Virus record (IMG/VR): IMGVR_UViG_3300044655_001909
Reading direction: 5' to 3' (one strand)
Length of the DNA stretch: 64,000 nucleotides
Source: an uncultured virus (IMG/VR IMGVR_UViG_3300044655_001909)
Taxonomy: Duplodnaviria; Heunggongvirae; Uroviricota; Caudoviricetes
The notes under the pieces were generated by a model. It did no database searches and had not been told where the DNA came from. It saw nothing but the letters and a program-made list of their open reading frames with translations. The position numbers and the translations under genes are program-made. Each line of letters opens with the position of its first letter. Positions within the stretch are counted from its first letter, which is position 1. Shown here one piece after another: positions 6,082 to 60,538 of the stretch.

Positions 6082-6552
6082 ATGGAACAAATAAATTCAC
6101 TAAATCAAGTAGCAGACTTTCACAGAACTTTTAACGCACCAATTCTTAATGAACCACAAATACCATCTTCTCAAAGATGTGAACTTCGTGTATCTTTATT
6201 ACAAGAAGAATTGAATGAATTAAAAGAAGCAATTGAGAATAATGATCTAGTAGAAATCGCAGATGCTTTAGCTGATTTACAATATGTTTTGAGTGGTGCC
6301 GTATTAGAGTTTGGACTAGGAGATAAGTTTGTTGAACTATTCAATGAAGTACAAAGAAGTAATATGTCTAAGGCTTGTAATAATGAATTAGAAGCACAAG
6401 CTACATTAGAACACTATAAACAAAAAGATGGTACTGAAGGTTACTATAAAGAAAATAATGGTAAATGGTTAGTTTACAGAAAAGAAGATGATAAAGTTTT
6501 AAAATCTGTGAATTATTCACCAGCAGATTTAAAAACAATTATCAATGAATAG
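6082..6552 (+). CDS. All-alpha NTP pyrophosphohydrolase (MazG-like / PRA-PH family)
   Basis: LLQEELNE, EIADALADLQYV, EVQRSNMSK, KVLKS motifs. Confidence 0.85.
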   Translation: MEQINSLNQVADFHRTFNAPILNEPQIPSSQRCELRVSLLQEELNELKEAIENNDLVEIADALADLQYVLSGAVLEFGLGDKFVELFNEVQRSNMSKACNNELEAQATLEHYKQKDGTEGYYKENNGKWLVYRKEDDKVLKSVNYSPADLKTIINE

Positions 6553-6886
6553 TTATTTTGTAAAAAAACTAAAAGATAAAGTAAACGCTAGACGAAAGAT
6601 AAATGGTTTAGAACTTTATACAACAGAACAAGTTAAAAAATTTCTTAAATATAAAGAAATAGGTAAGTATGAAATTGTTTGGGATAGAAACAATAACATT
6701 CTAGACCTTAATCAAATGCCTAATGATTGGAAGGTAACTCAAGAGAATGGTAGATATAGAATAGTAGGTAAAAACTCATTTAATAATGATTTTACTTTAA
6801 ATCTTTCTTCTTCTGAATATATTGAGTTTTCTTTACAAGAATTAAGAGAAATTAAATTAAATCAAATTTTACCAAAGTCAGAATAA
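6545..6886 (+). CDS. Hypothetical protein with C-terminal LREIKLNQIL motif
   Basis: Overlap-coupled ORF; shared C-terminal motif. Confidence 0.65.
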   Translation: MNSYFVKKLKDKVNARRKINGLELYTTEQVKKFLKYKEIGKYEIVWDRNNNILDLNQMPNDWKVTQENGRYRIVGKNSFNNDFTLNLSSSEYIEFSLQELREIKLNQILPKSE

Positions 6887-6892
6887 TTTTTG

Positions 6893-6900
6893 TATATTTG
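6893..6900 (+). promoter_or_regulatory. Bacteroidota-type -7 promoter element (TAnnTTTG)
   Basis: TATATTTG 4 nt before ATG 6905. Confidence 0.55.
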
Positions 6901-6904
6901 TGCT

Positions 6905-7225
6905 ATGTTAGAGAAGGAAAGAAAAAAGAGAAAACATAAAAAAGAGATGAAATCTCTTAGAAATAAAATGTCAAATCATTTAGTTTGGTTTGAATCACTA
7001 TCTCCGAAGAAACAATACGATATATTATTTCTTTGGAAACAAGAGAAACGATTTAACAATCTAACCGAACCAACAATAACTAAAACTAGTTGGGGAGATA
7101 TGACTAAATATCCACCTAATTTTAAACACTTTATAAATAAATTAAAGACACAACATAGATTTAAAGTGAATAAACAAACTTTAAGACAGAATGCAATAGA
7201 TTTAATTCTAAATAAAAATAATTAG
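6905..7225 (+). CDS. Hypothetical basic protein with C-terminal LRQNAIDLIL motif
   Basis: ORF; likely ATG at 6905. Confidence 0.6.
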   Translation: MLEKERKKRKHKKEMKSLRNKMSNHLVWFESLSPKKQYDILFLWKQEKRFNNLTEPTITKTSWGDMTKYPPNFKHFINKLKTQHRFKVNKQTLRQNAIDLILNKNN

Positions 7226-7229
7226 TATT

Positions 7230-8189
7230 ATGAAGATTTTCAGTGGAACATCAAACCCAGACCTTGCAGATAGTATCTGTGCAATTTTAAACAAAAAAAC
7301 ATTAGACAACTCTTTCACCAGAGGTCGATTAAAAATTGATAAATTTTCTGATGGTGAAATACTTCCATTGTTTGAAGAATCAGTTAGAGGAGAAGACATT
7401 CTCTTTGTACAATCAACTACATCATCCGATAACATTATGGAAACTTTATTAGTTATCGATGCAGCTAAACGTGCTGATTGTAAATCATTTACACTTATCT
7501 CACCTTTCCAAGGTTACTCACGACAAGACAAAACAGATCACTTACGTTCTTCTATTGGTTCTAAAATGTTAGCTGACATCTTAGAAACCGTTGGTATGTC
7601 TAGAATAATCACCGTGGACTTACACGCTTCTTCTATTCAAGGATTTTATGATGTACCAATCATTCACTTGAACGGTAATAAAATATTTATCGAACACATT
7701 AGAAAAAATCAAATAGAAGATTTAACTATCATTGCTCCTGACCAAGGTGCAGTGAAAAGAGCATCAGACTTCTGTAAAGCTTTCCCAGATTCTACATTTG
7801 CAATGATTAACAAGAAACGTGTTAAACCAAATGAAATTCATTCAATGGAATTAGTTGGTGACGTTGAAGGTAGAAATGTTGTTATTGTTGATGATATGGC
7901 AGATACATTAGGAACACTTAAAAAAGCTTCTGAACTTATTATGGCAAAAGGTGCAAAATCAGTAAGAGCTATTGCAACTCACGGTATTCTAAGTGGAGCT
8001 GCAATGGAGAACTTATACACATCACAACTAACAGAGTTAATGGTTTCAGATAGTATACCATCCGTTTTACAAAAAGAAAAAGATCAAGTAGGAGATAAAT
8101 TAAAAGTTATCTCTTGTGATAACATAATCGCGAGAACCATTTGGGGTCTAACAACTAAAAAGAGTATTCACGAAATAAATATGATATAA
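7230..8189 (+). CDS. prs: Ribose-phosphate pyrophosphokinase
   Basis: FSDGE, YSRQDK, DLHASSIQGFYD, APDQG, VIVDDMADTLGT, ATHG motifs; full length 319 aa. Confidence 0.95.
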   Translation: MKIFSGTSNPDLADSICAILNKKTLDNSFTRGRLKIDKFSDGEILPLFEESVRGEDILFVQSTTSSDNIMETLLVIDAAKRADCKSFTLISPFQGYSRQDKTDHLRSSIGSKMLADILETVGMSRIITVDLHASSIQGFYDVPIIHLNGNKIFIEHIRKNQIEDLTIIAPDQGAVKRASDFCKAFPDSTFAMINKKRVKPNEIHSMELVGDVEGRNVVIVDDMADTLGTLKKASELIMAKGAKSVRAIATHGILSGAAMENLYTSQLTELMVSDSIPSVLQKEKDQVGDKLKVISCDNIIARTIWGLTTKKSIHEINMI

Positions 8190-8770
8190 TGACAATGACA
8201 TTAAAGGCCTACGTAAGAGACATCAATTTGAATATGTTAACCGGTGGTTATGATGTTCAATATGATACCTCTAAAAGTAGAAGTAAATATCAATTTTTAA
8301 AACTTAACTGGAAACTGATTAAGTATGTCACCAATCTTGGTGGTGTACTAACAGGTTCTCGTGCTTTGAAGTGTTGTAGTATTAATGGTAAAGAAATGAT
8401 GGATAGAAGACCTAACGACTTTGACTTTTTAATAACCAAAGAAATGGCATTTCAAATATGTGATCATTTTAAATTCAAATATAATCTAACGGATCGTATT
8501 ATTTCAATTAAGAAACAAAGATGGACTTCCTATGATACATATAGTGATGATGTTACTAGATATGGTGCAGTTGATGTTCATTTAATTATTGTTGATGAAC
8601 TACCTGAGTTTATTGAACAAAATGGTATTAGAATTACACCATTCACTTATGTTATCAATGAGAAGTTGAAAATGATTGAGGATAATTCTACAAATAGAAA
8701 CGAGAAACAAAAACATGCAGACGACTTATCTGCTTTAACAATGAGATTTAACTTACTTATGCACATATAA
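8189..8770 (+). CDS. Minimal nucleotidyltransferase-fold protein
   Basis: VLTGSRAL ... RPNDFDF (GS...DxD) and C-terminal K..DD. Confidence 0.65.
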   Translation: MTMTLKAYVRDINLNMLTGGYDVQYDTSKSRSKYQFLKLNWKLIKYVTNLGGVLTGSRALKCCSINGKEMMDRRPNDFDFLITKEMAFQICDHFKFKYNLTDRIISIKKQRWTSYDTYSDDVTRYGAVDVHLIIVDELPEFIEQNGIRITPFTYVINEKLKMIEDNSTNRNEKQKHADDLSALTMRFNLLMHI

Positions 8771-9798
8771 TGAATAAATTTTTAGATGATTTTATAAAAG
8801 ACTTATCAATTAAAGATAAGAAAACACTTTCACAGAAAGGATTAAAACTTGCAGAAGAAGTAGGTGAATTAGCTCGTGCTATTCTACCATATGATTCTGC
8901 ACCAGGAACAAACCATAGATTTTCAGATAGAGAAAGAATACTTGAAGAAGTAGTGGATGTTTATTTATCAAACATTTCTATTGCACATTCATTGGGTTTC
9001 ACCGAGGAAGAGTTTAATGAAATGTTGAACAAGAAAACTGATAAGTGGGCTAAACTTCAATTAAAAGAAGAATCAGCAACATTTCCACTTCCATTTGAAA
9101 TTCATATTACGGTTAAAGCAGATATGTTATTCAACAAAAGTAAGTTAGACTTTAGTTGGACTTTTACCAATGATGAATTTATTGATGATTGTAAAGAAAT
9201 TGGTGTTAAACCAATTGTATTAGATTTAGAAATGAAAGAAGGAACCTTAAAAGATGTAATGACTAGTTCAAAGCACTTTGGAGATAATAGGAGTGCTTAT
9301 GAAGAAGCAAATCGTATTGCTAATGAACTAACATCACTTGGTTATAAAGTTGTCAGAAAGAAGATAGAAACAGTTCCTTGGCACCCTGCAGCACCAACTT
9401 TCAATACAGGAGAACCTATTCCAAATGGTTGTTACTTTGAAAGTCATATAGGAGTTGTTATTTCACCAGAAGAAAAACCTTATTTAGAAGGTTTCGTTGA
9501 AGAGTTAAATACAGGTTTCTTTTCACCGAGTAGAAGATTTAGTAGACCATCACAAATAGAATTAGGTGGTACTTGTAAATTATCACAAAATTTCTTTAAG
9601 AAGTCTAAGGATGGTAGTAAGTTTGTGAATATACTTACTTATAGAGATAATATGACTTGTAAAGAAGATTTTGAACGTGATGTTGAATTGATTAAGTTTT
9701 TACTTAATGAAGATAAATTTGGATTTGAAAAGGTTGAAGTCGAATATGCACTTTATGACACAAATGTAAACCACGATGCTAAATGGATTTTAGGATAA
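8770..9798 (+). CDS. MazG-like pyrophosphohydrolase fused to an uncharacterised domain
   Basis: N-terminal KLAEEVGEL..EEVVDV; C-terminal FEIHITV, RKKIE, YFESHI domain. Confidence 0.75.
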   Translation: MNKFLDDFIKDLSIKDKKTLSQKGLKLAEEVGELARAILPYDSAPGTNHRFSDRERILEEVVDVYLSNISIAHSLGFTEEEFNEMLNKKTDKWAKLQLKEESATFPLPFEIHITVKADMLFNKSKLDFSWTFTNDEFIDDCKEIGVKPIVLDLEMKEGTLKDVMTSSKHFGDNRSAYEEANRIANELTSLGYKVVRKKIETVPWHPAAPTFNTGEPIPNGCYFESHIGVVISPEEKPYLEGFVEELNTGFFSPSRRFSRPSQIELGGTCKLSQNFFKKSKDGSKFVNILTYRDNMTCKEDFERDVELIKFLLNEDKFGFEKVEVEYALYDTNVNHDAKWILG

Positions 9799-9826: not shown

Positions 9827-10384
9827 TTAGTATCTACTAGGAAATTCACTTTCTTTTCTAGAACGATAAAATGGTTCTTTATCGAAACATTTTTTTATCT
9901 CACAAGCTTTTTTCCAAGCAACAAATTCTGGACTATGTTCAGCAGGATTATCAAAATCATGATTTGAAAAGTTATTTTGATAATCTTTTAATTCATCATT
10001 CGATAAAGACATAAAGTATTTAAAGGTTCCTTTTGTATTTTCTTTATCCCAAGCACTTCTAAATAAATCCTTTTCTTTATCGTCCATAAATCTTAAATCA
10101 GGATTACCTTTATCAATAGTATCAACAATCTCATCTGAGGATTTACCTTTATATTTATCTCTTGCAATTTTAAGATAAGAATTTACTCTGACATCTCTAA
10201 AATGATCATCTAAACCTTCTTTTAAATCTTCATCTTCATCATAATCTTCACCAGTACATTGACAAGGTATACAATCACATTCAGTACAAACTTCTTCTTT
10301 TAAATCTTCTTCATTATTTAATTGAATAGGATTCCAACTCCCCATTGGATCTAACATTTCATTAAACTTTTTTAAGTATTTCAT
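9827..10384 (-). CDS. Hypothetical protein with leader MKYLKKFNE and CxxCxCxxCxC cluster
   Basis: Likely start 10384; CTECDCIPCQC; AATATATAC upstream. Confidence 0.7.
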   Translation of the reverse strand: MKYLKKFNEMLDPMGSWNPIQLNNEEDLKEEVCTECDCIPCQCTGEDYDEDEDLKEGLDDHFRDVRVNSYLKIARDKYKGKSSDEIVDTIDKGNPDLRFMDDKEKDLFRSAWDKENTKGTFKYFMSLSNDELKDYQNNFSNHDFDNPAEHSPEFVAWKKACEIKKCFDKEPFYRSRKESEFPSRY

Positions 10385-10423
10385 AATATACAAATTTTTT
10401 ATTAAAGTATATATTAAATAATA

Positions 10424-10470: not shown

Positions 10471-11646
10471 ATGGGGAAATTAGCCTTAAATTTTATATGT
10501 AAAAATGAATCACATGTAATTGAAAGAATGCTTAATAGTGCCAAATCAATCACAGATTTGATTGTAGTTAATGACACTGGTTCTACTGATGGAACTCAAG
10601 ATATTATCAGAAAGTTTGGTGAAGAAAATAACATACCAACATATGTTTTTGAAAGACCTTTCGACGATTTTGAAAAAAGTCGTACTTGGGCAATGACAAA
10701 ATTATCAGAGGTTGTCGCTGAATTAAAATGGGATGCTGATAAAGTACACGGATACTGGTTTGATTGTGATGAACAATTAATTATCGATCCAACTTTTAAC
10801 AAAAATCAATTCACTGCAGACCTTTATATGATCAACACTTATATCGGTCAAATGAAATATACAAGAAATACTTTCTTTAAAGTTTCTAAACCCTTTAAGT
10901 GGTATGGCCCTGTGCATGAGTTCATTGTATGTGAGGATCAAAATATTACTTCTGGATTAGCTACGGGTATTCATGTAAATGTAAGTATGGATGGTGCCTC
11001 TTGGCAAGGTAAAATATCAGAAAAGTATTTATCTCACTCGCATAAGTTAGAAACTTATATCAATGAAAATCGTCAAGATCCAAGATGGATTTTCTATACC
11101 GCACAATCTTATCACGATTCAGCATCTATTCCAGATAACAAAGATGAGAATGAAGAAAGATTAAGACGTTCTTTGAAATACTACAAAGAAAGAACAGAAA
11201 GAACTGATGGTTATGTTGAAGAAATATATTACTCACACTATCGTATGGGTACTATTATGAGAAGTTTAGAACATCCTTGGAACCTAACATTACAACAATG
11301 TTTAAAAGCTTATGCAATTGATCCGTTAAGAGGTGAATCAATTAAAACAATTGTTGATTATTATTTACAAATGGGAGAATGGCATCTAGCTTACTTATAT
11401 ACTAAGTTTGGGTATGAAAATTTTCACGGTAAAAATCCTTATCCTAAGAAACTTTTATTCGTAGATGAATCACTTTACGTTTGGAAATTTGCAGAGGCAC
11501 ATGCTGCGGCTTGTTTCTATACAGGAAGAACTGATGAAGCTAAAAAAGTTTATACACAAATACTTGCAGCAGTTAAATCAAATCCTGGTTCATTTACACC
11601 AGATGATTTACAAAAAATTGAAATGAACGGACAATTCTTTAGATAA
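10471..11646 (+). CDS. Glycosyltransferase family 2 with C-terminal TPR-like repeats
   Basis: ICKNE, VNDTGSTDGT, FDCDE, GPVHE; helical repeats follow. Confidence 0.9.
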   Translation: MGKLALNFICKNESHVIERMLNSAKSITDLIVVNDTGSTDGTQDIIRKFGEENNIPTYVFERPFDDFEKSRTWAMTKLSEVVAELKWDADKVHGYWFDCDEQLIIDPTFNKNQFTADLYMINTYIGQMKYTRNTFFKVSKPFKWYGPVHEFIVCEDQNITSGLATGIHVNVSMDGASWQGKISEKYLSHSHKLETYINENRQDPRWIFYTAQSYHDSASIPDNKDENEERLRRSLKYYKERTERTDGYVEEIYYSHYRMGTIMRSLEHPWNLTLQQCLKAYAIDPLRGESIKTIVDYYLQMGEWHLAYLYTKFGYENFHGKNPYPKKLLFVDESLYVWKFAEAHAAACFYTGRTDEAKKVYTQILAAVKSNPGSFTPDDLQKIEMNGQFFR

Positions 11647-12065
11647 TGGGTAAGATGTACACACTAGCAATAGTAAGTAAAGCAGCACAAAGAGAAGCTA
11701 AGTTAGGGTCACTATTAAGTGACTCTGACGAAGTTTTTGATATACCATTTGAGTTTATTTGGTCAAAAAATGGTAAACTACAAAAAGAAATAAGTTTGAA
11801 AATAAAAGCTTATAAAACTTTAGGTGGTGCAACTAGAGAATGTGCCAAGATAAATAAAAAGTATGCTAATAAATCAATGAGATTAAATTATGGTATGAGT
11901 ATTGATAGGAAATGGGTAACATCTTTTAATTTTGATACATCACAATATGCTTTCGTAGTTATTGATATAACTGAAAAGTGGAATCAACACATAGATAGTG
12001 AAGTTATAAAAGAAACTGCTATATATAATAGAGCGGTTCAAAAATTAAATTCCTTAAAAGTATAA
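11646..12065 (+). CDS. Hypothetical protein with N-proximal QREAKLGSLL motif
   Basis: TAATG-coupled ORF. Confidence 0.65.
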   Translation: MGKMYTLAIVSKAAQREAKLGSLLSDSDEVFDIPFEFIWSKNGKLQKEISLKIKAYKTLGGATRECAKINKKYANKSMRLNYGMSIDRKWVTSFNFDTSQYAFVVIDITEKWNQHIDSEVIKETAIYNRAVQKLNSLKV

Positions 12066-14455: not shown

Positions 14456-14638
14456 TTAATTATTTTTTTCAATAAGTCTTTCAACTTGTTTAGTCATCGC
14501 GGCTATTCTTCCTTTGAGAGCATTTTTATCTGTTTTATCTATATCTAAGTTAAGACCTTCTAGTCTTTTCTTTAACAACATTAATGATTTTAATGTATCA
14601 TCATCTAATGATTCGTTGAAACTTTTAAAGTCTTTCAT
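14456..14638 (-). CDS. Small protein with leader MKDFKSFNES
   Basis: Leader motif; directly follows the upstream gene. Confidence 0.65.
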   Translation of the reverse strand: MKDFKSFNESLDDDTLKSLMLLKKRLEGLNLDIDKTDKNALKGRIAAMTKQVERLIEKNN

Positions 14639-14639
14639 T

Positions 14640-18948: not shown

Positions 18949-18977
18949 AAAAAAGAGAGCAATTGCTCTCTTTTTTT
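18949..18977. terminator. Bidirectional terminator, AGAGAGC/GCTCTCT family
   Basis: AAAAAGAGAGCAATTGCTCTCTTTTT perfect palindrome. Confidence 0.85.
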
Positions 18978-50236: not shown

Positions 50237-50338
50237 AATTTTTTTAGTTTTTAATTTATTCTACAAAGATACGATATTATTTATAATAACCAAATATTAT
50301 TAAAAAACTTTACAGTAATATACTTATATAAATTATCT

Positions 50339-50827
50339 ATGAATAGTTTACAAGAATTAAATGAGTGGATTGAAAAAATTAAAAACTTAAATGTTGATGA
50401 TGATAATATCGATTTACTCAATAACTTCATCCGATTCTCACCAGAGAAGTTCGCAGATAAATTAGGATTAGAAAGAGAACCACTAGTAAAAGAGTTTGAT
50501 AAACATAAGAAAGAAGTTCACAATAAAGTAATCATTTACAATCGTGTAAAAGTTTTAAAAAAAAGAAAGTTAGAAACATTTACCTTTAAATATAATGGTA
50601 AGCCATATCCAACAAAGTTTTGTGTTTGTACAAAATTTCTTCAAGTAAAGTCAAATGCAAAGTTCTATCCAACTATAACTTATCTATATTGTGAACTAGA
50701 AGGATTCTTCGCAAATGAAAACTTAGTAGTGTTTGCAGAGAATCAAAAAGTTTATATAACAGAAAATGAATTTAATGAAAACTTTATTGATTTAAGAGAA
50801 TATAAAATCAATTCAATTATTAACTAA
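50339..50827 (+). CDS. Hypothetical protein with C-terminal LREYKINSII motif
   Basis: Shared motif; AAAC-N18-TATAA at 50305-50331. Confidence 0.65.
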   Translation: MNSLQELNEWIEKIKNLNVDDDNIDLLNNFIRFSPEKFADKLGLEREPLVKEFDKHKKEVHNKVIIYNRVKVLKKRKLETFTFKYNGKPYPTKFCVCTKFLQVKSNAKFYPTITYLYCELEGFFANENLVVFAENQKVYITENEFNENFIDLREYKINSIIN

Positions 50828-50840: not shown

Positions 50841-51572
50841 ATGATACAAAAAATAAATGATCGACTAAATGAATATTTAGAGTTCGATAATTCTATTTTA
50901 TTCTTTGATCCACTAATTAGAATCTTTGGTGGTGCTATCCGTGATAGTATTGCAGATGAAAAAATCAATGATGTCGACATCCTATGTGGTGCACAATCTA
51001 TTAGAAGATTAGAATCTATTTTAGAACAAAATGGTTATCATCGCTTTGAAAAACTTACATCTGTTGACATTACTAATCTTTATTCAACAATACACGTTAT
51101 ATCCGAACCACATACTTGGATTAAAGGAACTAAAGTAGTTCAATTGATTAGACCTAGATTACAAGTTGTGCGAGAAAAACGCGAAAATGAATCAGAACAA
51201 CAAAACTATACAGATAATTTTAAAGAACTTATTGAGAATGTAGATTTAAGTTGTTGTGGAGTTAGTTGGTCAAAAGGAATTCTCTTTGAAAATTGTGAGT
51301 CTGCAATACTTCATTGTTTAAATAAACAATATAATGTAAATCAAGGTGCTAGAATGTACTCATATGAAAGAGCAACACATAGAAGAGCCAAACTAGAAAG
51401 TAGAGGTTGGGAAGAAGTTTCTAAAAATAGAGTTCAAAGAAGAGATTTGAAGATTGACTTTATCTTACAGAATAAAGAAGAGTTTGAGTTTACTAAAGAA
51501 TGGAGTGAGGTAAGTAAACCACTATTGAAAGGTGAAGATCCACCATTTAGTAGAGGTAAAGTATGGAACTAA
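50841..51572 (+). CDS. Nucleotidyltransferase (polyA polymerase/CCA-enzyme head-like)
   Basis: IFGGAIRD...NDVDI; RRDLKIDFIL near the C-terminus. Confidence 0.75.
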   Translation: MIQKINDRLNEYLEFDNSILFFDPLIRIFGGAIRDSIADEKINDVDILCGAQSIRRLESILEQNGYHRFEKLTSVDITNLYSTIHVISEPHTWIKGTKVVQLIRPRLQVVREKRENESEQQNYTDNFKELIENVDLSCCGVSWSKGILFENCESAILHCLNKQYNVNQGARMYSYERATHRRAKLESRGWEEVSKNRVQRRDLKIDFILQNKEEFEFTKEWSEVSKPLLKGEDPPFSRGKVWN

Positions 51573-51586: not shown

Positions 51587-52144
51587 CTATTTAAGTAGTT
51601 CGTCTATTTTTTTATCTCTTCGTGAAGGAACATCTAAAAATCCATCCCATTTCCTAATTTCATCATTCTTAGCTTTAATTAGTTCAGCTCTTTTACTATC
51701 ATCTAATTGATTTTTATAAAGCCAATCTAAATGAGATTTAACACTATCAGATATATATTTTATAGTACGACCACTAGTATCTATATCTACTAAATCATCT
51801 ACAGTGAAGATATTCTGTCTATATAAGAAAAGTTTTTTCTTACCTATTACTGATGGGAAATAACCTAACTCAGAATGATAAATCCATTTTATATTTCTAT
51901 ATCTCTTAAAATTCCAAATATAGTTAAAGATACTTTTCTTCCCATCCATTATAGCACCACCTATAAGACCATTTGTTATTAAATTCCATATCAGAAAGAA
52001 AAACAAACTTGAAAAAAATACTGCACTAATATTAGTAGAATCTATAAGACACATTTTTCCAAACCAAGTACATAAAACTGCACCAAAAACAACCAAACTA
52101 ATTCCAAAAAAATGGAATAAAACATTTTTTAATTTACTACTCAT
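51587..52144 (-). CDS. Two-TM membrane protein with C-terminal RRDKKIDELL motif
   Basis: Hydrophobic N-terminus; shared motif. Confidence 0.7.
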   Translation of the reverse strand: MSSKLKNVLFHFFGISLVVFGAVLCTWFGKMCLIDSTNISAVFFSSLFFFLIWNLITNGLIGGAIMDGKKSIFNYIWNFKRYRNIKWIYHSELGYFPSVIGKKKLFLYRQNIFTVDDLVDIDTSGRTIKYISDSVKSHLDWLYKNQLDDSKRAELIKAKNDEIRKWDGFLDVPSRRDKKIDELLK

Positions 52145-52397
52145 TATTTATTCTTTTAATTTTTTTGTCTCTCATTTCACTTAAAGTAAGTGGACTAACT
52201 CTTTTATTACAACATTCACAAACAAAAACTACATCATCAACATCTATACCTATCGAAGATAATAAAGTTACTTTATGTTTAAGATCGACTGTACTTGTTA
52301 AACAATTTGGACAATACATATATTTTCTACACAAATCATTTAGATTTGTATAAATACTATCATTCTCAATTGGATATATTTTAAATGGTCTTCTCAT
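52137..52397 (-). CDS. Zinc-ribbon protein with C-terminal MRDKKIKRI motif
   Basis: CPNC ... CECC; likely start 52397 (TAATG overlap). Confidence 0.65.
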   Translation of the reverse strand: MRRPFKIYPIENDSIYTNLNDLCRKYMYCPNCLTSTVDLKHKVTLLSSIGIDVDDVVFVCECCNKRVSPLTLSEMRDKKIKRINNE

Positions 52398-53101
52398 TAT
52401 TTTAATACTCCAGTCATTTGTAACCATCTTGTCTTAACAAAACTAAAGTAATCACTTGGTGTCAAACCATAATTACCAACAGACCAACCATCATTAATCT
52501 CAATAAGATAGTTAGTTCCTTTACTATCAATACCAATATCTAATGTGTAACTATTTTGATCTAAATTAGATTTTGATAATTGATATATCTCGTCGACAAA
52601 TGATTTATCAGGTACAATGTAAGGATCACCTAAATAATGTTTAACTCCTAAGATACCTCTATCTTTATGAATGTAAACTCTATACTCAGAATCAAACTCA
52701 ACAATCTCTTGACAAGAAATATTATCTTTAAAGTCTTGTGTGAATAACTTAGCTTCTCTTACATCATTAACTATAATTCCGGTGAAAGCTTTAATATGTT
52801 TATAAGGTTTTATAAAACAAGGATATTCAGTTATTGCATCAATAGTTGTAATAACTTCTTTTCTTTTCTTAAAGTCAGTAGCCCACTTATCATCAATAGC
52901 TGAAATGTTATAACACAACCACTCTAAAGATTCTTCTACAGTAGTTACAACAATATTATAAGGGTTCATATTGACTTCTTTTATATCAGAGAAAGCAATA
53001 CATTCTATTCCAGCATCATTGGCACCTATGGCTGCATCCGAACAAAAGTTATCGAACGGTACTCCATTTTCGTCTACTCTATAATATAATTTTGGTTTCA
53101 T
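52397..53101 (-). CDS. ATP-grasp protein (DUF4343 / R2K-like)
   Basis: PCFIKP, K.FTG, SEYRVYI, YTLDIG, LIEIND.W..G.YG. Confidence 0.8.
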   Translation of the reverse strand: MKPKLYYRVDENGVPFDNFCSDAAIGANDAGIECIAFSDIKEVNMNPYNIVVTTVEESLEWLCYNISAIDDKWATDFKKRKEVITTIDAITEYPCFIKPYKHIKAFTGIIVNDVREAKLFTQDFKDNISCQEIVEFDSEYRVYIHKDRGILGVKHYLGDPYIVPDKSFVDEIYQLSKSNLDQNSYTLDIGIDSKGTNYLIEINDGWSVGNYGLTPSDYFSFVKTRWLQMTGVLK

Positions 53102-53304
53102 TTTAGTATTTCATTTATTTTATCTTCTCTACGTTTTGCAATTTCTTTATCACATTGAATTATATAAGCTTCCCACATACCATTTTCTTGATATGCACTA
53201 TCTAGTGTATTTTTAAGTTCAACTAAATCCCAGAAAGGTAATGTTTCTATTAGAGAAACTCTTTCAACTGGTGATAAACTAGAAAAGTGTAGTATATTCT
53301 TCAT
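53098..53304 (-). CDS. Small protein with C-terminal RREDKINEIL motif
   Basis: Likely start 53304; TATATTTG at 53317-53324 (minus). Confidence 0.65.
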   Translation of the reverse strand: MKNILHFSSLSPVERVSLIETLPFWDLVELKNTLDSAYQENGMWEAYIIQCDKEIAKRREDKINEILK

Positions 53305-53360
53305 AATTATTATATGCAAATATATGTAAAAATATTTAATCTATTTAAAATTATTTTTAT

Positions 53361-53372: not shown

Positions 53373-53708
53373 ATGAAAACATTTACTCACACATTTGAAA
53401 TTTCTGACGAAGCTTATGTGCTTTTACTTTCTATTCAAAAAGAAGGTTACGCAGAGTATAGAGATACTCGTTGGGAATCATTAGAAGATTTTCGTGCAGA
53501 TGATGAAACAGGGTTTCGTTCAGAGGATAGTTTTTTAAAACGTAATCACGGTGGTACTTACTACCTAACTTCAGAACTATTAAAATACAATCTAATAGAT
53601 CATGTTGAAGATTCTTGGCACATAACTTATGAGCTAACTGATTTTGCTAAAGAAATGTTATCATTACAAAATCTCAGAAATGGAAAACTTATTGAACTTT
53701 TAAAATAA
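53373..53708 (+). CDS. Small protein (possible winged helix) with C-terminal LRNGKLIELL motif
   Basis: ELLKYNLI..YELTDFAK; shared motif. Confidence 0.65.
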   Translation: MKTFTHTFEISDEAYVLLLSIQKEGYAEYRDTRWESLEDFRADDETGFRSEDSFLKRNHGGTYYLTSELLKYNLIDHVEDSWHITYELTDFAKEMLSLQNLRNGKLIELLK

Positions 53709-53915: not shown

Positions 53916-54257
53916 ATGGGATTAACAAAGGCATTAAATAATAGAATACTTTATCATTTACATTTAGAACCAGATGGTAACACCAACTTCAAACATTGTT
54001 ACGAAGGTTTCATAAGTAAAACCCAACCTTGTTATGAAGAAATAATACGTTATCATAAAGAACAAACTGGTAATGATCGATTAGATGCAGTCGTTAGATT
54101 GGCAACACCACTTTATATTAAAATACATACGGATAACAACATTATGTTTACTTTATCATTAAATGATAGAGAATTATGTTTCTTAGGTGAATTAGACTTG
54201 AATGCAATATTCAGAACAGAAATTAGAGAATATAATATCGATTATATTTTTGGATAA
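53916..54257 (+). CDS. Hypothetical protein with C-terminal IREYNIDYIF motif
   Basis: Shared motif. Confidence 0.6.
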   Translation: MGLTKALNNRILYHLHLEPDGNTNFKHCYEGFISKTQPCYEEIIRYHKEQTGNDRLDAVVRLATPLYIKIHTDNNIMFTLSLNDRELCFLGELDLNAIFRTEIREYNIDYIFG

Positions 54258-54604: not shown

Positions 54605-54675
54605 AATAAGTTCTAAATAGGATTAAAGTCTGAGAGGTCGAAAGACAGGACATATATCTGGTACAGTTTAGACAC

Positions 54676-54705
54676 AAAAAAGAGAGCAATTGCTCTCTTT
54701 TTTTA
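54676..54705 (+). terminator. Terminator, AGAGAGC/GCTCTCT family
   Basis: Same AAAAAGAGAGCAATTGCTCTCTTTTT palindrome as at 18949. Confidence 0.85.
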
Positions 54706-56021: not shown

Positions 56022-56504
56022 ATGAAATATGTAAAAACATTTGAATCTTTAAAAGAAGATAAAGAAGAATTAGAACAATTAAGAGAAACAATCAAAATGA
56101 TTTTTGTTGATTTAATTGATGAAGGATTTTCTACACAAATACTAACATCACAAAGAGAAAAGGTAGAAGGACTTCAATATAGTGCTCGTCAAGGTAAAGC
56201 AGATAAGTATAGTAAGTGTAATGTTGTTTATGTTAGGTTAGTAAGATTTAAAGATAACGATGATGAGACATCTTTCCGTGTACATAATAACAGATCAGAA
56301 ATCTATAGACACAAAATAACTGATTGTTTTCACACTTTACTATCAATTTTAGATAGAAAATGGGGTGGTGCTAAATTAGAGAAAATAGTTAGAGAAGATG
56401 CAATTACATCAGATGATACTTACTTTCATAATATAGATGAAGAAAAAATATGGAGTAGAGACTTTATATCAATTGCAATTACAATAGTAAAAAAAGATTT
56501 ATAA
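56022..56504 (+). CDS. LxDEGF-family protein with leader MKYVKTFES
   Basis: IFVDLIDEGF; LDRKWG. Confidence 0.7.
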   Translation: MKYVKTFESLKEDKEELEQLRETIKMIFVDLIDEGFSTQILTSQREKVEGLQYSARQGKADKYSKCNVVYVRLVRFKDNDDETSFRVHNNRSEIYRHKITDCFHTLLSILDRKWGGAKLEKIVREDAITSDDTYFHNIDEEKIWSRDFISIAITIVKKDL

Positions 56505-56899
56505 TGAGATACTTAAAACTATTTGAAGGTGGTATAAACCAAGATATAATTGATAAAGATTATATTGAAATGTGTTTCGTTGATTTTATTGATGAAGGTA
56601 ACTTCCGTTTATATTTAGGATATGATAAAAAAACATGTTCAATTACTATTAATCGTGAATCTATCTCTAACCGTGATAAAAGAGGTACAATAAAGGATTT
56701 TAAAGAAAGATCTAAACTAAACTATGAACTATTTGATAAAATAGAAGAGTGTCTACCAAAAGTTAAGCTTCAATACCCTTACATGCAATATAAAATACAT
56801 GACCATTCTGGGGCAGATGAAGAGGAGATTAGAGTAGATTTAGCACTAGATACTGCAGCTTCAGTAATTCGTGAACCACGAATTTGGTTTCCACTTTAA
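56504..56899 (+). CDS. LxDEG-family protein with leader MRYLKLFEG
   Basis: CFVDFIDEGNF. Confidence 0.7.
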   Translation: MRYLKLFEGGINQDIIDKDYIEMCFVDFIDEGNFRLYLGYDKKTCSITINRESISNRDKRGTIKDFKERSKLNYELFDKIEECLPKVKLQYPYMQYKIHDHSGADEEEIRVDLALDTAASVIREPRIWFPL

Positions 56900-57708
56900 A
56901 TAAAATCATATAACCATTTATATCCACGTGCGGTTTTAGTTATACCACAAGCACACATTGTTATATTACCAGTGCTACAACCTAGTTCTAACGCAGCAAT
57001 CTTAGCACATTCCCAAGTTTTTATAAAATCACCATCTAATGTATATTGATGTACCTGTTTTCTCTGTTTGGAAATAAAACCGGTTTTACCTGTATTCCAA
57101 CTCTTGTTTCCTTTTTTCCATCTTGTAGATAATCCACTCTTGATCACACTATTATTTATATTGGCATTTTCTATAATAGTATTAAGTTCGTCTTTAGTAA
57201 TAATACTATATACTTTCTCATATAACCAAATATAACCACCAGATGTTTTTCTTTTACCAATTAAAACATTATATATTCTTTTACCACAAAACTCTCTACC
57301 TTCTTTTATGGAATTAAAAGTATTTACATACTCACCACTTTTTGTTAAACAAACTACCTTTACTGGTGGTTTTCCCTTTAAACTACCACTATTACCAAAG
57401 GTTGCTCCATTTCCACCACCACATATATTAAATAATTTAATACCATTTTCTTTAAATTGTCTAACATAAAACTTTTCTTTAGTCTTCCACTCAGCAACAT
57501 CTACTTCTTCAATAATCTCTAATATAGGCAAAAGACCCTGATCTAATAAACTTTTAATCCATACATTTTTAGCAGTGTTATCTCCTGTATTTGTATCACC
57601 TAAACTTTTATGTTTTCTAAATCTACCTTTAGGGTCATTTGCCTTACCAACGTATTTCACTTGTCCATCTAGTGGACAAACCAGTGAATAAATAAATGTT
57701 TTCTTCAT
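56896..57708 (-). CDS. Free-standing GIY-YIG homing endonuclease with NUMOD1 repeats
   Basis: FIYSL..VKYVGKA..RF..H, KE..YV, LFN; two NUMOD1-like repeats (GGYIWLY, RGYKWLY). Confidence 0.85.
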   Translation of the reverse strand: MKKTFIYSLVCPLDGQVKYVGKANDPKGRFRKHKSLGDTNTGDNTAKNVWIKSLLDQGLLPILEIIEEVDVAEWKTKEKFYVRQFKENGIKLFNICGGGNGATFGNSGSLKGKPPVKVVCLTKSGEYVNTFNSIKEGREFCGKRIYNVLIGKRKTSGGYIWLYEKVYSIITKDELNTIIENANINNSVIKSGLSTRWKKGNKSWNTGKTGFISKQRKQVHQYTLDGDFIKTWECAKIAALELGCSTGNITMCACGITKTARGYKWLYDFI

Positions 57709-57789
57709 ATTGTATATATTAAAAATAATCCACCCTCTCCTGTGATTATTAGTATTTTTTTATTATCTTTGTAAAACAAATAAAAAAAT

Positions 57790-58512: not shown

Positions 58513-58513
58513 T

Positions 58514-58759
58514 ATGACAAAACGAGAGGCATATAAAACCTTTACCGTTGAATGTATCGACGACTTTTATGATACGCTTACCTTAGGTAAGTTGTATCAA
58601 GTCGGTATTTATGATATAATAGAACAAGGTTCTCCCGAAGAAAGTTATATTATTGAAAATGATTTAGGTTATACAGAATGTTTTTATAGTGATAGTTTCA
58701 AAATTGTAAACAAAGCTGAAGAACGTGATATAAAGTTAAAGGAATTATTCAATGAATAG
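58514..58759 (+). CDS. Small protein (LT.GK.Y..I.ND.G type) with C-terminal ERDIKLKELF motif
   Basis: Paralogous with 59042..59254. Confidence 0.65.
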   Translation: MTKREAYKTFTVECIDDFYDTLTLGKLYQVGIYDIIEQGSPEESYIIENDLGYTECFYSDSFKIVNKAEERDIKLKELFNE

Positions 58760-59045
58760 AAATTATAAACTAGAACGATTACAAAACGGAGAAACCTTTG
58801 TCACTAAAGAGACCGGTAACTCTATGGTTCCACTAATCAAATCTAAACAAGAACACGTTCTATCTCCTGTACTTATTGAAGATGTAGTACCAGGTGACAT
58901 CGTTTATTGTAAAGTAAAAGGTAACTGGTATACTCACTTAGTTAAAGCAATTGACCCTTTAAAAGGTTGTTTGATTGGTAATAACAAAGGTAATATAAAT
59001 GGTTGGACGAAACAAGTTTATGGGAAAGTAATAGAGGTTTTATGA
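58752..59045 (+). CDS. S24/S26 peptidase-like small domain
   Basis: GNSMVPLI, PGDIVYC, THLVK, YGKV. Confidence 0.65.
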   Translation: MNRNYKLERLQNGETFVTKETGNSMVPLIKSKQEHVLSPVLIEDVVPGDIVYCKVKGNWYTHLVKAIDPLKGCLIGNNKGNINGWTKQVYGKVIEVL

Positions 59046-59254
59046 GAGTAAAGTGTATTAAATACTATGGTAATTTGACTAAGTCACATGGACTGACATT
59101 AAATACTTATTATCAATTAACTGATATAGATAAACACGGCTATCGAGTAATTGACGACTTAGGCAGAAATTACTGGTTTACTAAAGAATGTTTTGAACCA
59201 ATAGAAGAAGCAAGAGATAACATATTAAATGAATTACTAAATGATATTTTTTAA
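59042..59254 (+). CDS. Small protein with C-terminal ARDNILNELL motif
   Basis: MRVKCIK..LTLNTYY..VIDDLG..F; ATGA overlap at 59042. Confidence 0.65.
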   Translation: MRVKCIKYYGNLTKSHGLTLNTYYQLTDIDKHGYRVIDDLGRNYWFTKECFEPIEEARDNILNELLNDIF

Positions 59255-59561
59255 TGATACCGGAGAAATGATTGATGTTCTTATAGAGAACACTGCATTT
59301 AAACCTACACTATATACTAAAGTTGGTGAGTTCTTAGCTCAAGATATATTTGATATTCTTATAGAAGAAAAAACAGGTTTGAATGATTATGATAATATAA
59401 AGATAACAAGAATTATTGAAATATTATGTAAAAAAGTTAAATACTATCAAGTACATATATCTTGTACTCATAATGGATTTATGGTAGGTGGATCAGAACA
59501 TATTGAAGATTTACCTCAAAAGATTAGACAAAGAAAATTAGAAAAGATTTTAAACCAGTGA
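59241..59561 (+). CDS. Hypothetical protein with C-terminal IRQRKLEKIL motif
   Basis: Shared motif. Confidence 0.6.
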   Translation: MIFFNDTGEMIDVLIENTAFKPTLYTKVGEFLAQDIFDILIEEKTGLNDYDNIKITRIIEILCKKVKYYQVHISCTHNGFMVGGSEHIEDLPQKIRQRKLEKILNQ

Positions 59562-60212
59562 TAAACCATTAATATTACCGATACTACCAGAATTAACACC
59601 ATTGATTTTACCATATGTTGATACACCATCTGGTGCAATAGAAATAGGTGCCACATATTCTAAATAAGGGCGGAGTGCCAATGAACCCGTATTATACCAG
59701 TAAGTTAATTGATTAAAAGAACTAGGAGTTACATTCATAAAATCATATGTATAATCTATCACTGCTAAACTAAGCTCACCATTAAGTACCGCATCAGATA
59801 TAGCAGTAGAGTTTAATGATATTGTATACAAACCATTTGCAGGAGTATATACTTCAGAATTACTATAATTACTTGCGGTATAACCATTGAAAAGATTAAA
59901 GTGACTTGTATTTAGGTTCTCTGCATTTGTTTTTAATGATTTTAATGCTATAACAGAAGTAGTTCCTGTAGTATAATTAACATTTATTTTTAAATCTAAT
60001 GATGTAATAGTTAATCCACTTAACACAGAAGTGTCAAATGATAAATATGTCCTATCCATTTCTAGAAATCCTCCACCTCCATTAACAGCCTTTAGTTGAG
60101 CAGAGGAATTACTAACAATTAAAGCGGTATATGAAGATCTAAGTGTAGACCAGTTAGAGTTGTATTGTATTAAAGTTCCACCGTTTGTTTGATTAGCCAA
60201 AATTGTTCCCAT
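59550..60212 (-). CDS. Putative virion surface protein
   Basis: S/T/N rich, RTYLSFDTS, RPYLEY, KINGV..I..INGL C-terminus; TATATATAA upstream. Confidence 0.6.
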   Translation of the reverse strand: MGTILANQTNGGTLIQYNSNWSTLRSSYTALIVSNSSAQLKAVNGGGGFLEMDRTYLSFDTSVLSGLTITSLDLKINVNYTTGTTSVIALKSLKTNAENLNTSHFNLFNGYTASNYSNSEVYTPANGLYTISLNSTAISDAVLNGELSLAVIDYTYDFMNVTPSSFNQLTYWYNTGSLALRPYLEYVAPISIAPDGVSTYGKINGVNSGSIGNINGLSLV

Positions 60213-60352
60213 ATATTATATATAAAGTTATCGAAACGATAATAAAATCAAAATGTCGATGGCCGACATTTATATATTTATTAGTTATATATCATGATGT
60301 TACATGTTTTTGAAATTACTAAACTTATTTAAAATAAATTATATATCTTTGT

Positions 60353-60538
60353 ATGATAATAACTTGTATAAAAAATTGTTGGGTCGGTAGATACTACCGA
60401 ATAGGTGACAGCATAAACATCACAGAAAGACAATTCCTCAGTGAACACTACGTTCATAACGGACATATGTTTCCTAAAGAAAAGTTCCTAACAATCGAAG
60501 AATTAAGAGATTACAAAATTAAAAAAATATGCGAATAG
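60353..60538 (+). CDS. Small protein with C-terminal LRDYKIKKI motif
   Basis: Shared motif; TATCTTTG at 60344-60351. Confidence 0.6.
   Translation: MIITCIKNCWVGRYYRIGDSINITERQFLSEHYVHNGHMFPKEKFLTIEELRDYKIKKICE

What the first reader, a model, noticed from the sequence alone, without database searches (positions are those of the whole stretch)
6545..60538. A shared R-[DEQN]-x-K-[IL]-x-x-[IL]-L helical tag on ~16 unrelated small proteins: candidate undescribed docking/addressing system
Seen: the same 9-residue pattern ends proteins with no other similarity. C-terminal or near-C-terminal: LREIKLNQIL (6545), LRQNAIDLIL (6905), LREYKINSII (50339), RRDLKIDFIL (50841 NTase), RRDKKIDELL (51587 membrane protein), MRDKKIKRI (52137 Zn ribbon), RREDKINEIL (53098), LRNGKLIELL (53373), IREYNIDYIF (53916), ERDIKLKELF (58514), ARDNILNELL (59042), IRQRKLEKIL (59241), LRDYKIKKI (60353). 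N-proximal: VRDINLNML (8189 NTase), QREAKLGSLL (11646), NRNYKLERL (58752). The encoding DNA is not visibly conserved, so selection appears to act on the peptide. No carrier has the MKYLK leader, and carriers cluster behind host-type or AAAC-TATAA boxes. Inference: a short linear motif that docks many early accessory proteins onto one hub (a phage scaffold/compartment, an AAA+ ATPase, or a host protease/adaptor), or a common oligomerisation helix. I know of no function described for it.
Basis: partly seen in the sequence, partly recalled or inferred. Interest (0 to 1): 0.9.

Follow-up and report, generated by a model that had tools for sequence, protein, structure and literature searches.

The report
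Shared C-terminal helix tag in megaphages
About one in six proteins of this huge Bacteroidetes-type phage and its relatives, otherwise unrelated small proteins, end in the same short arginine-centred helix, which looks like an undescribed address or docking label whose receiver is still unknown.

Summary
In the window, 12 of 87 proteins end in the motif (shuffles give 0.3). In the related 635-kb phage LR745206, 153 of 973 predicted genes (about 30% of the 80-150-aa proteins) carry it within 12 residues of the stop. Their bodies are unrelated by BLAST and phmmer and have no Pfam or PHROG family. Codon use at motif positions matches the genome, so selection acts on the peptide. The tag is a helix of about 15 residues: [ST]-K-[SQ]-E-h-R-[DEN]-x-K-[IL]-x-x-[IL]-[LG]. 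More distant megaphages carry their own versions, R-K-x-[KI]-I-x-[DE]-L-L in LR756504 and R-T-K-L-I-D-K-M-L in LR756501. That pattern suggests co-evolution with one partner per lineage. It never co-occurs with the N-terminal MKYLKxF leader (0 of 78) and is enriched behind host-type promoter boxes. Best reading: a docking or addressing helix on fast-evolving early accessory proteins. The hub is not identified. No Pfam family, PDB sequence or paper searched matched.

The parts
6830..6874 (+). C-terminal tag of ORF 6545-6886 (113 aa): ...FSLQEL-REIKLNQIL-PKSE*
   Evidence: 24.7 bits with the LR745206-trained matrix. It is among the most conserved segments in 21 aligned homologues. AF2 predicts a helix at 97-108 after a beta-rich body.
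7169..7213 (+). C-terminal tag of ORF 6890-7225 (111 aa; the true start is probably the ATG at 6905): ...NKQTL-RQNAIDLIL-NKNN*
   Evidence: 16.5 bits. R, I, D and L are invariant down to 42% identity. AF2 predicts a helix at 90-104 on an alpha-helical body.
50780..50824 (+). C-terminal tag of ORF 50339-50827 (162 aa): ...FIDL-REYKINSII-N*
   Evidence: 16.7 bits.
51426..51470 (+). Near-C-terminal tag in NTase 50841-51572 (243 aa), 34 aa from the end: RDLKIDFIL
   Evidence: 9.8 bits and a strict-regex hit. Pfam PolyA_pol head domain. The orthologue in LR745206 (336 aa) has the tag 19 aa from its end.
51590..51634 (-). C-terminal tag of ORF 51587-52144 (185 aa): ...PSR-RDKKIDELL-K*
   Evidence: 21.2 bits.
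52143..52187 (-). C-terminal tag of ORF 52137-52427 (96 aa): ...LSEM-RDKKIKRIN-NE*
   Evidence: 23.1 bits.
53101..53145 (-). C-terminal tag of ORF 53098-53319 (73 aa): ...IAKR-REDKINEIL-K*
   Evidence: 22.8 bits.
53661..53705 (+). C-terminal tag of ORF 53373-53708 (111 aa): ...LQNL-RNGKLIELL-K*
   Evidence: 12.5 bits. A host-type TAnnTTTG box lies 12 nt upstream of its start.
54210..54254 (+). C-terminal tag of ORF 53916-54257 (113 aa): ...RTEI-REYNIDYIF-G*
   Evidence: 14.2 bits.
58709..58753 (+). C-terminal tag of ORF 58514-58759 (81 aa): ...KAEE-RDIKLKELF-NE*
   Evidence: 25.5 bits. It lies in the operon headed by 57790, which has a host-type box.
59198..59242 (+). C-terminal tag of ORF 59003-59254 (83 aa, start uncertain): ...IEEA-RDNILNELL-NDIF*
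   Evidence: 21.0 bits.
59511..59555 (+). C-terminal tag of ORF 59241-59561 (106 aa): ...PQKI-RQRKLEKIL-NQ*
   Evidence: 18.1 bits. The gene end converges on a minus-strand gene, so the tag is not tied to a downstream start.
60491..60535 (+). C-terminal tag of ORF 60353-60538 (61 aa): ...IEEL-RDYKIKKIC-E*
   Evidence: 18.2 bits.
8201..8245 (+). N-proximal copy of the motif in ORF 8189-8770 (193 aa): RDINLNMLT at residue 10
   Evidence: 16.1 bits. The orthologue in LR745206 keeps it at residue 13.
11676..11720 (+). N-proximal copy in ORF 11646-12065 (139 aa): REAKLGSLL at residue 16
   Evidence: 19.6 bits. Homologues in LR745206 (71455 and 357716) keep it at residue 16.

Best explanation
The motif is a peptide-level C-terminal tag. 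It is a single amphipathic helix of about 13-15 residues: an N-cap [ST], then K-[SQ]-E-h-R-[DEN]-x-K-[IL]-x-x-[IL]-[L, or G followed by I/L], usually followed by 0-2 polar residues and the stop. It sits on small, cytosolic, mostly acidic accessory proteins that evolve fast and are otherwise unrelated. These make up about 14% of the window's genes and 16% of LR745206's. Shown: it is real, selected as peptide, helical in two models, conserved within orthologous families, and lineage-specific in sequence. Inferred from helix geometry, with no model contacts inspected: all conserved residues (K-4, S-3, R0, D1, K3, h4, h7, L8) fall on one helix face, with the invariant arginine in the middle of the hydrophobic stripe. 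Inferred mechanism: that face docks into a groove with an acidic pocket on one common partner per phage lineage, so many different effector-like proteins are brought to the same place or machine. Rough split of what the partner does: hand-over to a remodelling, chaperone or protease machine, including use as a timed degron (about 40% of this reading; the candidates, the phage's own Hsp70/DnaJ, an AAA+ ATPase or a host protease, are my guesses); targeting to a phage-made compartment or scaffold (about 30%); a replisome or clamp-type platform (about 15%); loading into the capsid (about 15%).
For: 1. Enrichment and position. Window: 12 of 87 proteins against 0.3 in shuffles. LR745206: 180 matrix hits against 1-2 in shuffles, with 153 of 973 genes tagged within 12 aa of the stop. 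LR756502: 84 HMM matches, and 30 of 111 genes in its first 50 kb.
2. Peptide, not DNA. Codon use at motif positions tracks genome-wide use. For example R is AGA 109, AGG 26, CGN 17 against expected 115, 18, 19, and the smallest p over 12 tests is 0.008.
3. Unrelated bodies. With the tails removed, 153 bodies fall into 151 blastp clusters, and phmmer finds only 2 pairs. Of the 100 longest motif-bearing proteins, 5 have any Pfam family; the three strong ones carry the motif internally and the other two matches are weak and below Pfam's own cut-offs. The 12 window carriers searched have no PHROG family. The two AF2 bodies differ: one helical, one beta-rich.
4. No conservation upstream of position -10.
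5. Purifying selection. Tag columns score 0.93 against 0.81-0.82 for the body in two families of 21 sequences each.
6. Concerted lineage variants at positions the search pattern left free. Position 1 is D/E/N 80% in LR745206, K 49% in LR756504 and T/S 85% in LR756501. Position 3 is K 67%, K/I 78% and L 76%. Position 7 is I/L, L 74% and M 62%.
7. The tag works in other positions: N-proximal copies are kept in orthologues, two helicases carry internal copies at 24 bits, and two proteins carry two tags.
8. Mutual exclusion with the MKYLKxF leader: 0 of 78, where about 12 would be expected.
9. Carriers are enriched in operons with a host-type TAnnTTTG box (29% against 5% for leader proteins and 10% for large proteins; Fisher p 3e-4 and 2e-4). 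Three operon heads in the window have such a box.
Against: No partner is identified, so docking rests on inference.
The helix follows the last strand or helix of the body with almost no linker, and G/P are depleted from -10 to -1. It could therefore pack on its own domain.
In LR756501 the tagged proteins sit in three gene clusters. Their last 25-40 residues, sometimes including a CxxC knuckle, are similar enough for BLAST to detect. That fits common descent of at least part of the set.
Concerted variants would also arise if each lineage expanded its own founder gene.
The promoter classes come from crude regular expressions, and 45% of carriers fall in no class.
Hsp70 co-occurs with the tag in 4 of 4 tagged records, but it is also present as a split copy in tag-less Lak-C1, and the comparison is confounded by relatedness.
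Confidence: 0.5

Rival explanations
1. One hugely expanded and diverged paralogous family. All carriers descend from one small gene, the bodies have diverged beyond recognition, and the C-terminal helix is kept because it completes the fold or caps the domain, not because it binds a shared partner.
For: Carriers form arrays: 47 adjacent pairs against 24 expected. Seven consecutive LG[IL]-ending genes lie at 374.6-376.4 kb of LR745206. In LR756501 and LR756504 neighbouring tagged genes share BLAST-detectable or visibly similar tails of 20-40 residues. The helix abuts the body without a linker.
Against: Lengths range from 35 to 731 aa. There is no residual similarity in 151 of 153 bodies. The two modelled bodies have different secondary structure. 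One carrier is a Pol-beta-type NTase. The motif also occurs N-terminally and inside two helicases. A merely structural helix would not be expected to keep an invariant Arg plus D and K on one face across unrelated bodies.
Confidence: 0.22
2. The tag is a self- or cross-association helix. Tagged proteins oligomerise or co-assemble with one another through their tails into bundles, a lattice or a condensate, with no separate hub.
For: It is an amphipathic helix. Concerted lineage variants are also expected if the tails must fit each other. Carriers are co-expressed in arrays.
Against: By helix geometry (inference), 13 residues with an arginine in the centre of the hydrophobic face make a poor self-pairing surface. 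The acidic partner residue sits at a different position in each lineage (1, 6, 2/5). I ran no test of this rival.
Confidence: 0.1
3. The conserved unit is a DNA or RNA signal at gene 3' ends (a coupling site, terminator, promoter of the next gene or recombination site), and the peptide is a by-product.
For: 48% of carriers overlap the next gene's start, against 28% of other small genes. TGA stops are more frequent in carriers (45 of 153 against 191 of 973).
Against: Synonymous codons are used as in the rest of the genome. 25% of carriers have no co-directional downstream gene, and window genes 51587 and 59241 end at convergent junctions. N-terminal and internal copies exist. The reversed amino-acid pattern gives 0 hits.
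Confidence: 0.02
4. Chance in a K/I/L/N-rich proteome.
For: The genome is 29% G+C and rich in K, I, L and N.
Against: Composition-matched shuffles give 0.08 strict hits against 8 in the window, and 1-2 matrix hits against 180 in LR745206. The reversed motif gives 0 hits. 85% of hits lie within 12 residues of the stop.
Confidence: 0.005

Closest known systems
PIP-box / clamp-binding motifs (consensus Q-x-x-[ILM]-x-x-[FY]-[FY], recalled, from no call)
   Same: A short helical motif, mostly at the extreme C-terminus but also N-terminal or internal, on many unrelated proteins that dock onto one hub. The spacing is the same: polar at position 1, hydrophobic at 4, hydrophobic pair at 7 and 8, with basic residues flanking. 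Two helicases carry internal copies.
   Different: D/E/N (or K or T in other lineages) replaces Q, and aliphatic residues replace the aromatic pair. There is an invariant Arg before the motif. Neither the gp45 C-terminal domain (PF09116) nor the beta-clamp C-terminal domain (PF02768), the only two clamp Pfam models searched, was found in five megaphage records. The carriers are ORFan early proteins, not replication enzymes.
MIM helices of ESCRT-III binding the MIT domain of the Vps4 AAA ATPase (MIM1 consensus recalled, from no call)
   Same: A C-terminal amphipathic helix with a key Arg and Leu/Ile stripe that docks many proteins onto the N-domain of a classic-clade AAA ATPase. The window encodes a PF00004-type AAA with an uncharacterised 170-aa N-domain (36754-37836).
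   Different: The pattern does not match MIM1. No MIT family was found in 36754. No binding is shown.
Cargo-loading peptides of encapsulins and the capsid-targeting sequence of T4 internal proteins (recalled)
   Same: A short terminal peptide shared by unrelated cargo proteins that addresses them to the inside of an HK97-fold shell. The relatives have a T4-type gp23 capsid protein and gp20 portal.
   Different: The sequences are unrelated. The T4 signal is N-terminal. Carriers here lean towards host-type (early) promoter boxes, whereas the N-terminal MKYLKxF leader sits on proteins behind the TATATA box that dominates large proteins. That leader is the better candidate for a virion signal.
Adaptor and degron tails of AAA+ proteases (SspB XB tail, ssrA and MuA-type C-motifs; recalled)
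   Same: Short C-terminal peptides with basic and hydrophobic residues that tether proteins to an unfoldase.
   Different: Those act at or very near the free carboxylate or on a flexible tail. Here 0-8 variable residues follow the motif, and the motif is a structured helix abutting the domain.
Conserved trafficking motifs on fast-evolving effectors (e.g. the RxLR or PEXEL type; recalled)
   Same: A short conserved address on hundreds of otherwise unrelated, rapidly turning-over small proteins encoded in arrays.
   Different: Those are eukaryotic N-terminal export signals. There is no evidence here for export: 7% of carriers have a hydrophobic stretch.

Membership tests
PIP-box / sliding-clamp-binding motif | Q-x-x-[ILM]-x-x-[FY]-[FY] core (recalled consensus) | tested here: not met
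   The spacing fits, but position 1 is D43/E19/N18%, with Q rare. Positions 7 and 8 are I/L and L/G/I, with F 12% at position 8 only.
PIP-box / sliding-clamp-binding motif | A sliding clamp encoded by the phage or host that binds the motif | tested here: inconclusive
   PF09116 and PF02768 give 0 matches in 5 megaphage records. A divergent phage clamp or the host clamp was not tested.
MIM-MIT (Vps4-type) docking | An MIT three-helix domain on the AAA ATPase | tested here: not met
   Pfam on 36754-37836 finds only AAA-type families at residues 155-335 and nothing in the N-domain. PDB phmmer gives nothing.
MIM-MIT (Vps4-type) docking | (D/E)xxLxxRLxxL(K/R) at the C-terminus (recalled) | tested here: not met
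   The logo places R three to four residues before the first Leu/Ile, not between two of them.
Encapsulin cargo-loading peptide / T4 capsid-targeting sequence | Carriers are virion or shell cargo made with the late structural genes | tested here: inconclusive
   The crude promoter classes put carriers more often behind host-type boxes than leader or large proteins. No proteomics exists for these uncultured phages.
SAP / HeH / Rho_N helix-extension-helix (considered because of the ...L-G-I ending) | A match to the Pfam models, and a second helix after the G-[IL] turn | tested here: not met
   None of 106 tails matches SAP, HeH or Rho_N even at E up to 10. The proteins stop right after G-[IL].
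C-terminal degron of ssrA/ClpX type | Recognition of the last 2-3 residues and the free carboxylate | tested here: not met
   0 to 8 variable residues follow the motif. Functional internal and N-terminal copies exist.
Hsp70/DnaK client motif | A hydrophobic core of 4-5 residues flanked by basic residues, with acidic residues disfavoured (recalled) | tested here: inconclusive
   Basic flanks and an I/L core are present, but the core is interrupted by polar residues and D/E is conserved at position 1. The phages encode Hsp70 and DnaJ. Binding was not tested.
Any curated protein family or solved structure | A profile match of the tail | tested here: not met
   A profile of 106 tails against PDB sequences gives one hit at E = 1. 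Pfam on the tails gives 7 single-member weak hits. Foldseek of the 6890-family model gives nothing at E <= 0.001.

The most novel reading that the evidence does not exclude
These megaphages run a two-label sorting code over about a quarter of their proteome. An N-terminal MKYLKxF leader marks proteins behind phage-type TATATA boxes. A mutually exclusive C-terminal arginine helix marks more than 100 fast-evolving early effectors. The helix plugs each effector into one phage-lineage-specific receptor, either a remodelling machine such as the phage's own Hsp70/DnaJ or an AAA+ ATPase, or a phage-built compartment. The receptor and all the tags have co-evolved into at least three dialects. This would be the first proteome-scale address system described in a bacterial virus.
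Probability: 0.25. Interest if true: 0.92.

Novelty: new variant of a known kind. Interest (0 to 1): 0.8.

Why it matters
Huge phages are mostly genetic dark matter. Here a single 15-residue label organises about a sixth of that dark matter into one functional class. If the label is a docking or address signal, finding its receptor would assign a shared pathway to hundreds of ORFans per genome at once. It would show how a 640-kb phage coordinates its early takeover proteins. It would also give a portable tag for targeting proteins in infected Bacteroidetes cells. The lineage-specific dialects offer a natural co-evolution experiment for locating the receptor. The motif is a cheap marker for recognising fragments of this phage clade in metagenomes: 25 of 80 IMG/VR loci picked by one codon pattern carried three or more tags.

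Tried and rejected
- Co-fold of the AAA+ ATPase 36754 (alignment A6) with the tagged 6545 family (A5): no verdict, score 0.00 in two runs. This counts neither for nor against binding.
- Clamp hypothesis: no gp45 or beta-clamp Pfam domain in five megaphage records. ORF 38164 has the size of a beta-clamp, but Pfam and PDB searches give only low-complexity hits.
- Tail profile against PDB sequences and Pfam: nothing.
- ESM Atlas on carrier 53373: only unnamed clusters below 0.9.
- Foldseek of the 6890-family model: nothing.
Replaced by a codon-pattern scan.
- ATP-grasp 52397 and ATPase 57790 as hubs: rejected, because neither has an orthologue in tag-rich LR745206.
- The N-proximal motif of 58752: treated as chance. 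The protein looks like a small S24-type peptidase (weak Pfam match, E 0.03, below the cut-off), and the motif is absent from its LR756504 orthologue.
- Cultured relatives as a model system: Tenacibaculum pT24 and PTm1, Flavobacterium MaF61 and Chryseobacterium MA9V-1 have no tags.
- Phyletic profiling for the hub: abandoned, because even tag-poor LR756501 has about 20 tags, so absence patterns cannot discriminate.
- Alignment A1 had wrong window coordinates and was replaced by A2.
- Literature: seven searches or look-ups found no description of this motif. For PMC7162821 and PMC7824862 I saw passages only. Their supplements were not read.


Full report
What the window is. The window is 29% G+C. 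It encodes T4-like baseplate and tail-fibre proteins, nucleotide-metabolism enzymes, two GIY-YIG endonucleases and long arrays of small ORFans. Its baseplate-wedge protein is 75% and 71% identical to those of two uncultured phages of 635 and 642 kb, LR745206 and LR756502. It is 41%, 38% and 32% identical to those of LR756504, LR756501 and LR756500, and 28% identical to the Lak phages. Passages of Al-Shayeb et al. 2020 (PMC7162821) place the genomes above 634 kb in the 'Mahaphage' clade with predicted Bacteroidetes hosts. No whole genome is held for the window. I therefore fetched LR745206, LR756504 and LR756501 completely, plus 50-kb samples of six other phages.

The observation in the window. 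The strict pattern R[DEQN].K[IL]..[IL][IL] occurs 8 times in my 86-gene set, and 6 of those are in the last 15 residues. In 300 composition-preserving shuffles the means are 0.08 and 0, and the reversed pattern gives 0 hits. A position matrix trained only on LR745206 finds 14 window hits at 12 bits or more, 12 of them within 4 residues of the stop, among 87 proteins. Shuffles give 0.3, and no ORF outside the gene set scores. The NTase copy is 34 residues from the end. Of the N-proximal copies, 8189 and 11646 are convincing and are kept in orthologues. The copy in 58752 is probably chance.

The true scale. In LR745206 the strict pattern gives 74 hits, 63 within 6 residues of the stop. The iterated matrix gives 176-180 hits against 1-2 in shuffled proteins, and 153 of 973 predicted genes carry the tag within 12 residues of the C-terminus. 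That is 28-33% of proteins of 80-150 aa and almost none above 300 aa. LR756502 has 84 HMM matches, and 30 tagged genes among the 111 in its first 50 kb. Of the 80 loci fetched, 25 hold three or more tagged genes within 12 kb (up to 17 of 28 genes), 19 hold one or two, and 36 hold none. The tag is therefore common in an environmental clade of large phages.

Anatomy. Aligned on the arginine, information is confined to positions -5 to +9, with weak signals at -10 (acidic) and -9 (hydrophobic) and nothing further upstream. The consensus is [ST/F]-K-[SQ]-[EY]-[IL]-R-[DEN]-x-K-[IL]-[NKD]-x-[IL]-[L/G]-x. About 20% end in G-[IL], a helix C-cap. Usually 0-2 residues follow, with a range of 0-8. AlphaFold2 models of two window families both make the tag a helix, on different bodies. 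The 6890 family (pLDDT 86.9) has long helices plus a hairpin, with the tag at 90-104. The 6545 family (pLDDT 65.9, moderate) has a beta-rich body, with the tag at 97-108. On a helical wheel, which is my geometry and not a tool result, K-4, S-3, R0, D1, K3, h4, h7 and L8 share one face with R0 at its centre. The variable positions lie on the other face.

Peptide or nucleic acid. Codon use at each conserved residue follows genome-wide use. The smallest p among 12 tests is 0.008, for the Ile at position 7, which leans to ATA. A quarter of carriers have no co-directional downstream gene. Two window carriers end at convergent junctions. A DNA or RNA signal is therefore very unlikely.

Are the carriers related? 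With tails removed, 153 bodies form 151 blastp clusters at E < 1e-3, and phmmer finds only the same two pairs. Pfam finds families in 5 of the 100 longest motif-bearing proteins: the three strong ones (SpoVR and two SF2 helicases) carry the motif internally, and two C-terminal carriers have only weak matches below Pfam's cut-offs (DUF7277, Fe-S_assembly). None of the 12 window carriers searched has a PHROG. One window carrier is a Pol-beta-type NTase. Against this, carriers cluster in arrays (47 adjacent pairs against 24 expected). In LR756501 the tagged genes sit in three clusters and share 25-40 C-terminal residues that BLAST detects, sometimes with a CxxC knuckle. Part of the set therefore arose by duplication. 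What is conserved afterwards is only the tail.

Selection and turnover. The 6890 and 6545 families have 30 and 41 metagenomic homologues. In both, the 14 tag columns are among the most conserved windows: 0.93 against 0.81-0.82 for the body, ranking 3 of 93 and 9 of 100. By contrast only 2 of 13 window carriers have a blastp match in LR745206, against 34 of the 74 other proteins, although the core genes are syntenic. The carriers are the fast-changing accessory fraction.

Dialects. Using a pattern that fixes only R0 and the hydrophobic positions 4, 7 and 8, C-terminal hits number 166 in LR745206, 97 in LR756504 and 21 in LR756501. From the internal rate, 3-4 would be expected. The free positions differ by genome in a concerted way. 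Position 1 is D/E/N, K, or T/S. Position 3 is K, K/I, or L. Position 5 is N/K/D, E/K/N, or D at 81%. Position 7 is I/L, L, or M. LR756500, Lak-C1 and four cultured Bacteroidetes jumbo phages show none. Either all tags track one lineage-specific partner, or each lineage expanded its own founder gene.

Context. In LR745206, 78 genes begin with an MKYLKxF-type leader and none carries the C-tag, where about 12 would be expected. The window shows the same exclusion. Two upstream box types are enriched. One is TATATA, 20-40 nt before starts. The other is TAnnTTTG, which I recall as the Bacteroidetes -7 element. Carriers lie in operons with the host-type box more often than other classes: 29%, against 5% of leader proteins and 10% of proteins of 300 aa or more (Fisher p 3e-4 and 2e-4). 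In the window the operon heads 53373, 57790 and 60353 have such boxes. This crude test suggests early expression, and it argues mildly against capsid loading. Carrier bodies are cytosolic (7% have a hydrophobic stretch) and mostly acidic (median pI 5.3), much like other small proteins.

Search for the partner. The tail profile matches nothing in PDB sequences or Pfam. The spacing equals that of a PIP-box (recalled), but the residues differ and no clamp family was found in five records. The window's classic-type AAA ATPase (36754) belongs to a large conserved family with 609 homologues and has an unassigned 170-residue N-domain. A Pfam survey of 110 large LR745206 proteins shows a complete Hsp70 and a complete DnaJ, the latter flanked by tagged genes, besides the gp23 capsid protein, gp20 portal, PrkA/SpoVR and many aminoacyl-tRNA synthetases. 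Hsp70 is present in all four tag-bearing records. It is absent from LR756500 and the four cultured phages, but a split copy is present in tag-less Lak-C1. This is a lead confounded by relatedness, not evidence of binding.

Verdict. The finding is real, highly non-random and far more extensive than reported. The best-supported reading is a docking or addressing helix on early accessory proteins that recognises one lineage-specific partner (confidence about 0.5). The main rival is a diverged paralogous family with a structurally required terminal helix (about 0.22). Next is tail-to-tail association (about 0.1). Nucleic-acid and chance explanations are effectively excluded. Seven literature queries and the passages read from two papers describe nothing like it. 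As a kind, a shared terminal address peptide is known; this one, its scale and its dialects are not.

Noticed in passing
window 9827-10393(-), 14456-14969(-), 20599-21573(-), 28187-28822(-), 28880-30253, 30280-31575(-), 40225-40461(-), 48579-49247, 56022-56899, 61149-63645(-): A second shared label. About 15 window proteins, and 78 of 973 in LR745206, begin with M-[KR]-x-[LIV]-[KRN]-x-[FY], typically MKYLKxFE. It never co-occurs with the C-tag and lies mostly behind TATATA boxes. It could be a propeptide or a virion-targeting leader.
   Followed up: partly
LR745206 record 473,636-475,507 (+) and 460,831-461,910 (-): The relative encodes a full-length Hsp70 (E 3e-250) and a full three-domain DnaJ. 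Hsp70 is also in LR756502, LR756504 and LR756501, and is split in two pieces in Lak-C1.
   Followed up: partly
window 50841-51572, 52397-53101(-), 60529-60945: An RNA-repair-like set lies among the tagged genes: a PolyA_pol-head NTase, an R2K-clade ATP-grasp and a HAD_SAK_2 phosphatase. LR745206 also has RlaP, two RNA ligases and a 2'-5' RNA ligase/RNase T fusion.
   Followed up: no
window 58752-59045: A 97-aa protein with a GNSM...GDIV pattern gives a weak Peptidase_S24 match (E 0.03). It is conserved in LR745206 (76%), LR756501 (62%) and LR756504 (39%) and sits inside a tagged-gene operon.
   Followed up: partly
window 19554-20537(-) and 56896-57708(-): Two GIY-YIG/NUMOD homing-endonuclease genes. 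Neither has an orthologue in LR745206.
   Followed up: no
LR745206 upstream regions; window e.g. 50310-50338, 57709-57789: Two upstream box types: TATATA[AT], 20-40 nt before many starts, and TAnnTTTG. They have different gene clienteles.
   Followed up: partly
window about 54650-54700 (between 54604 and 54719): A perfect G+C-containing inverted repeat followed by a T run, which looks like a terminator, appears in the upstream string of gene 54719.
   Followed up: no
LR745206 120,830-122,440(-) and 235,077-236,744(+); 88,587-89,294 and 194,897-195,382: Two SF2 helicases carry the motif internally at about 24 bits. Two small proteins carry two copies each, as if two tagged modules had fused.
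   Followed up: no
window 36754-39255: An operon of overlapping genes: the AAA ATPase (360 aa), a 115-aa protein and a 363-aa protein with a low-complexity centre. The 363-aa protein has matches in LR745206 and LR756504 but not in LR756501.
   Followed up: partly
window 6082-8189, 8770-9798, 18977-19522, 39255-40106: Nucleotide-metabolism and modification genes: PRA-PH/MazG-like pyrophosphatases, PRPP synthetase, a guanylate-kinase-like protein and a Dam-type methylase.
   Followed up: no
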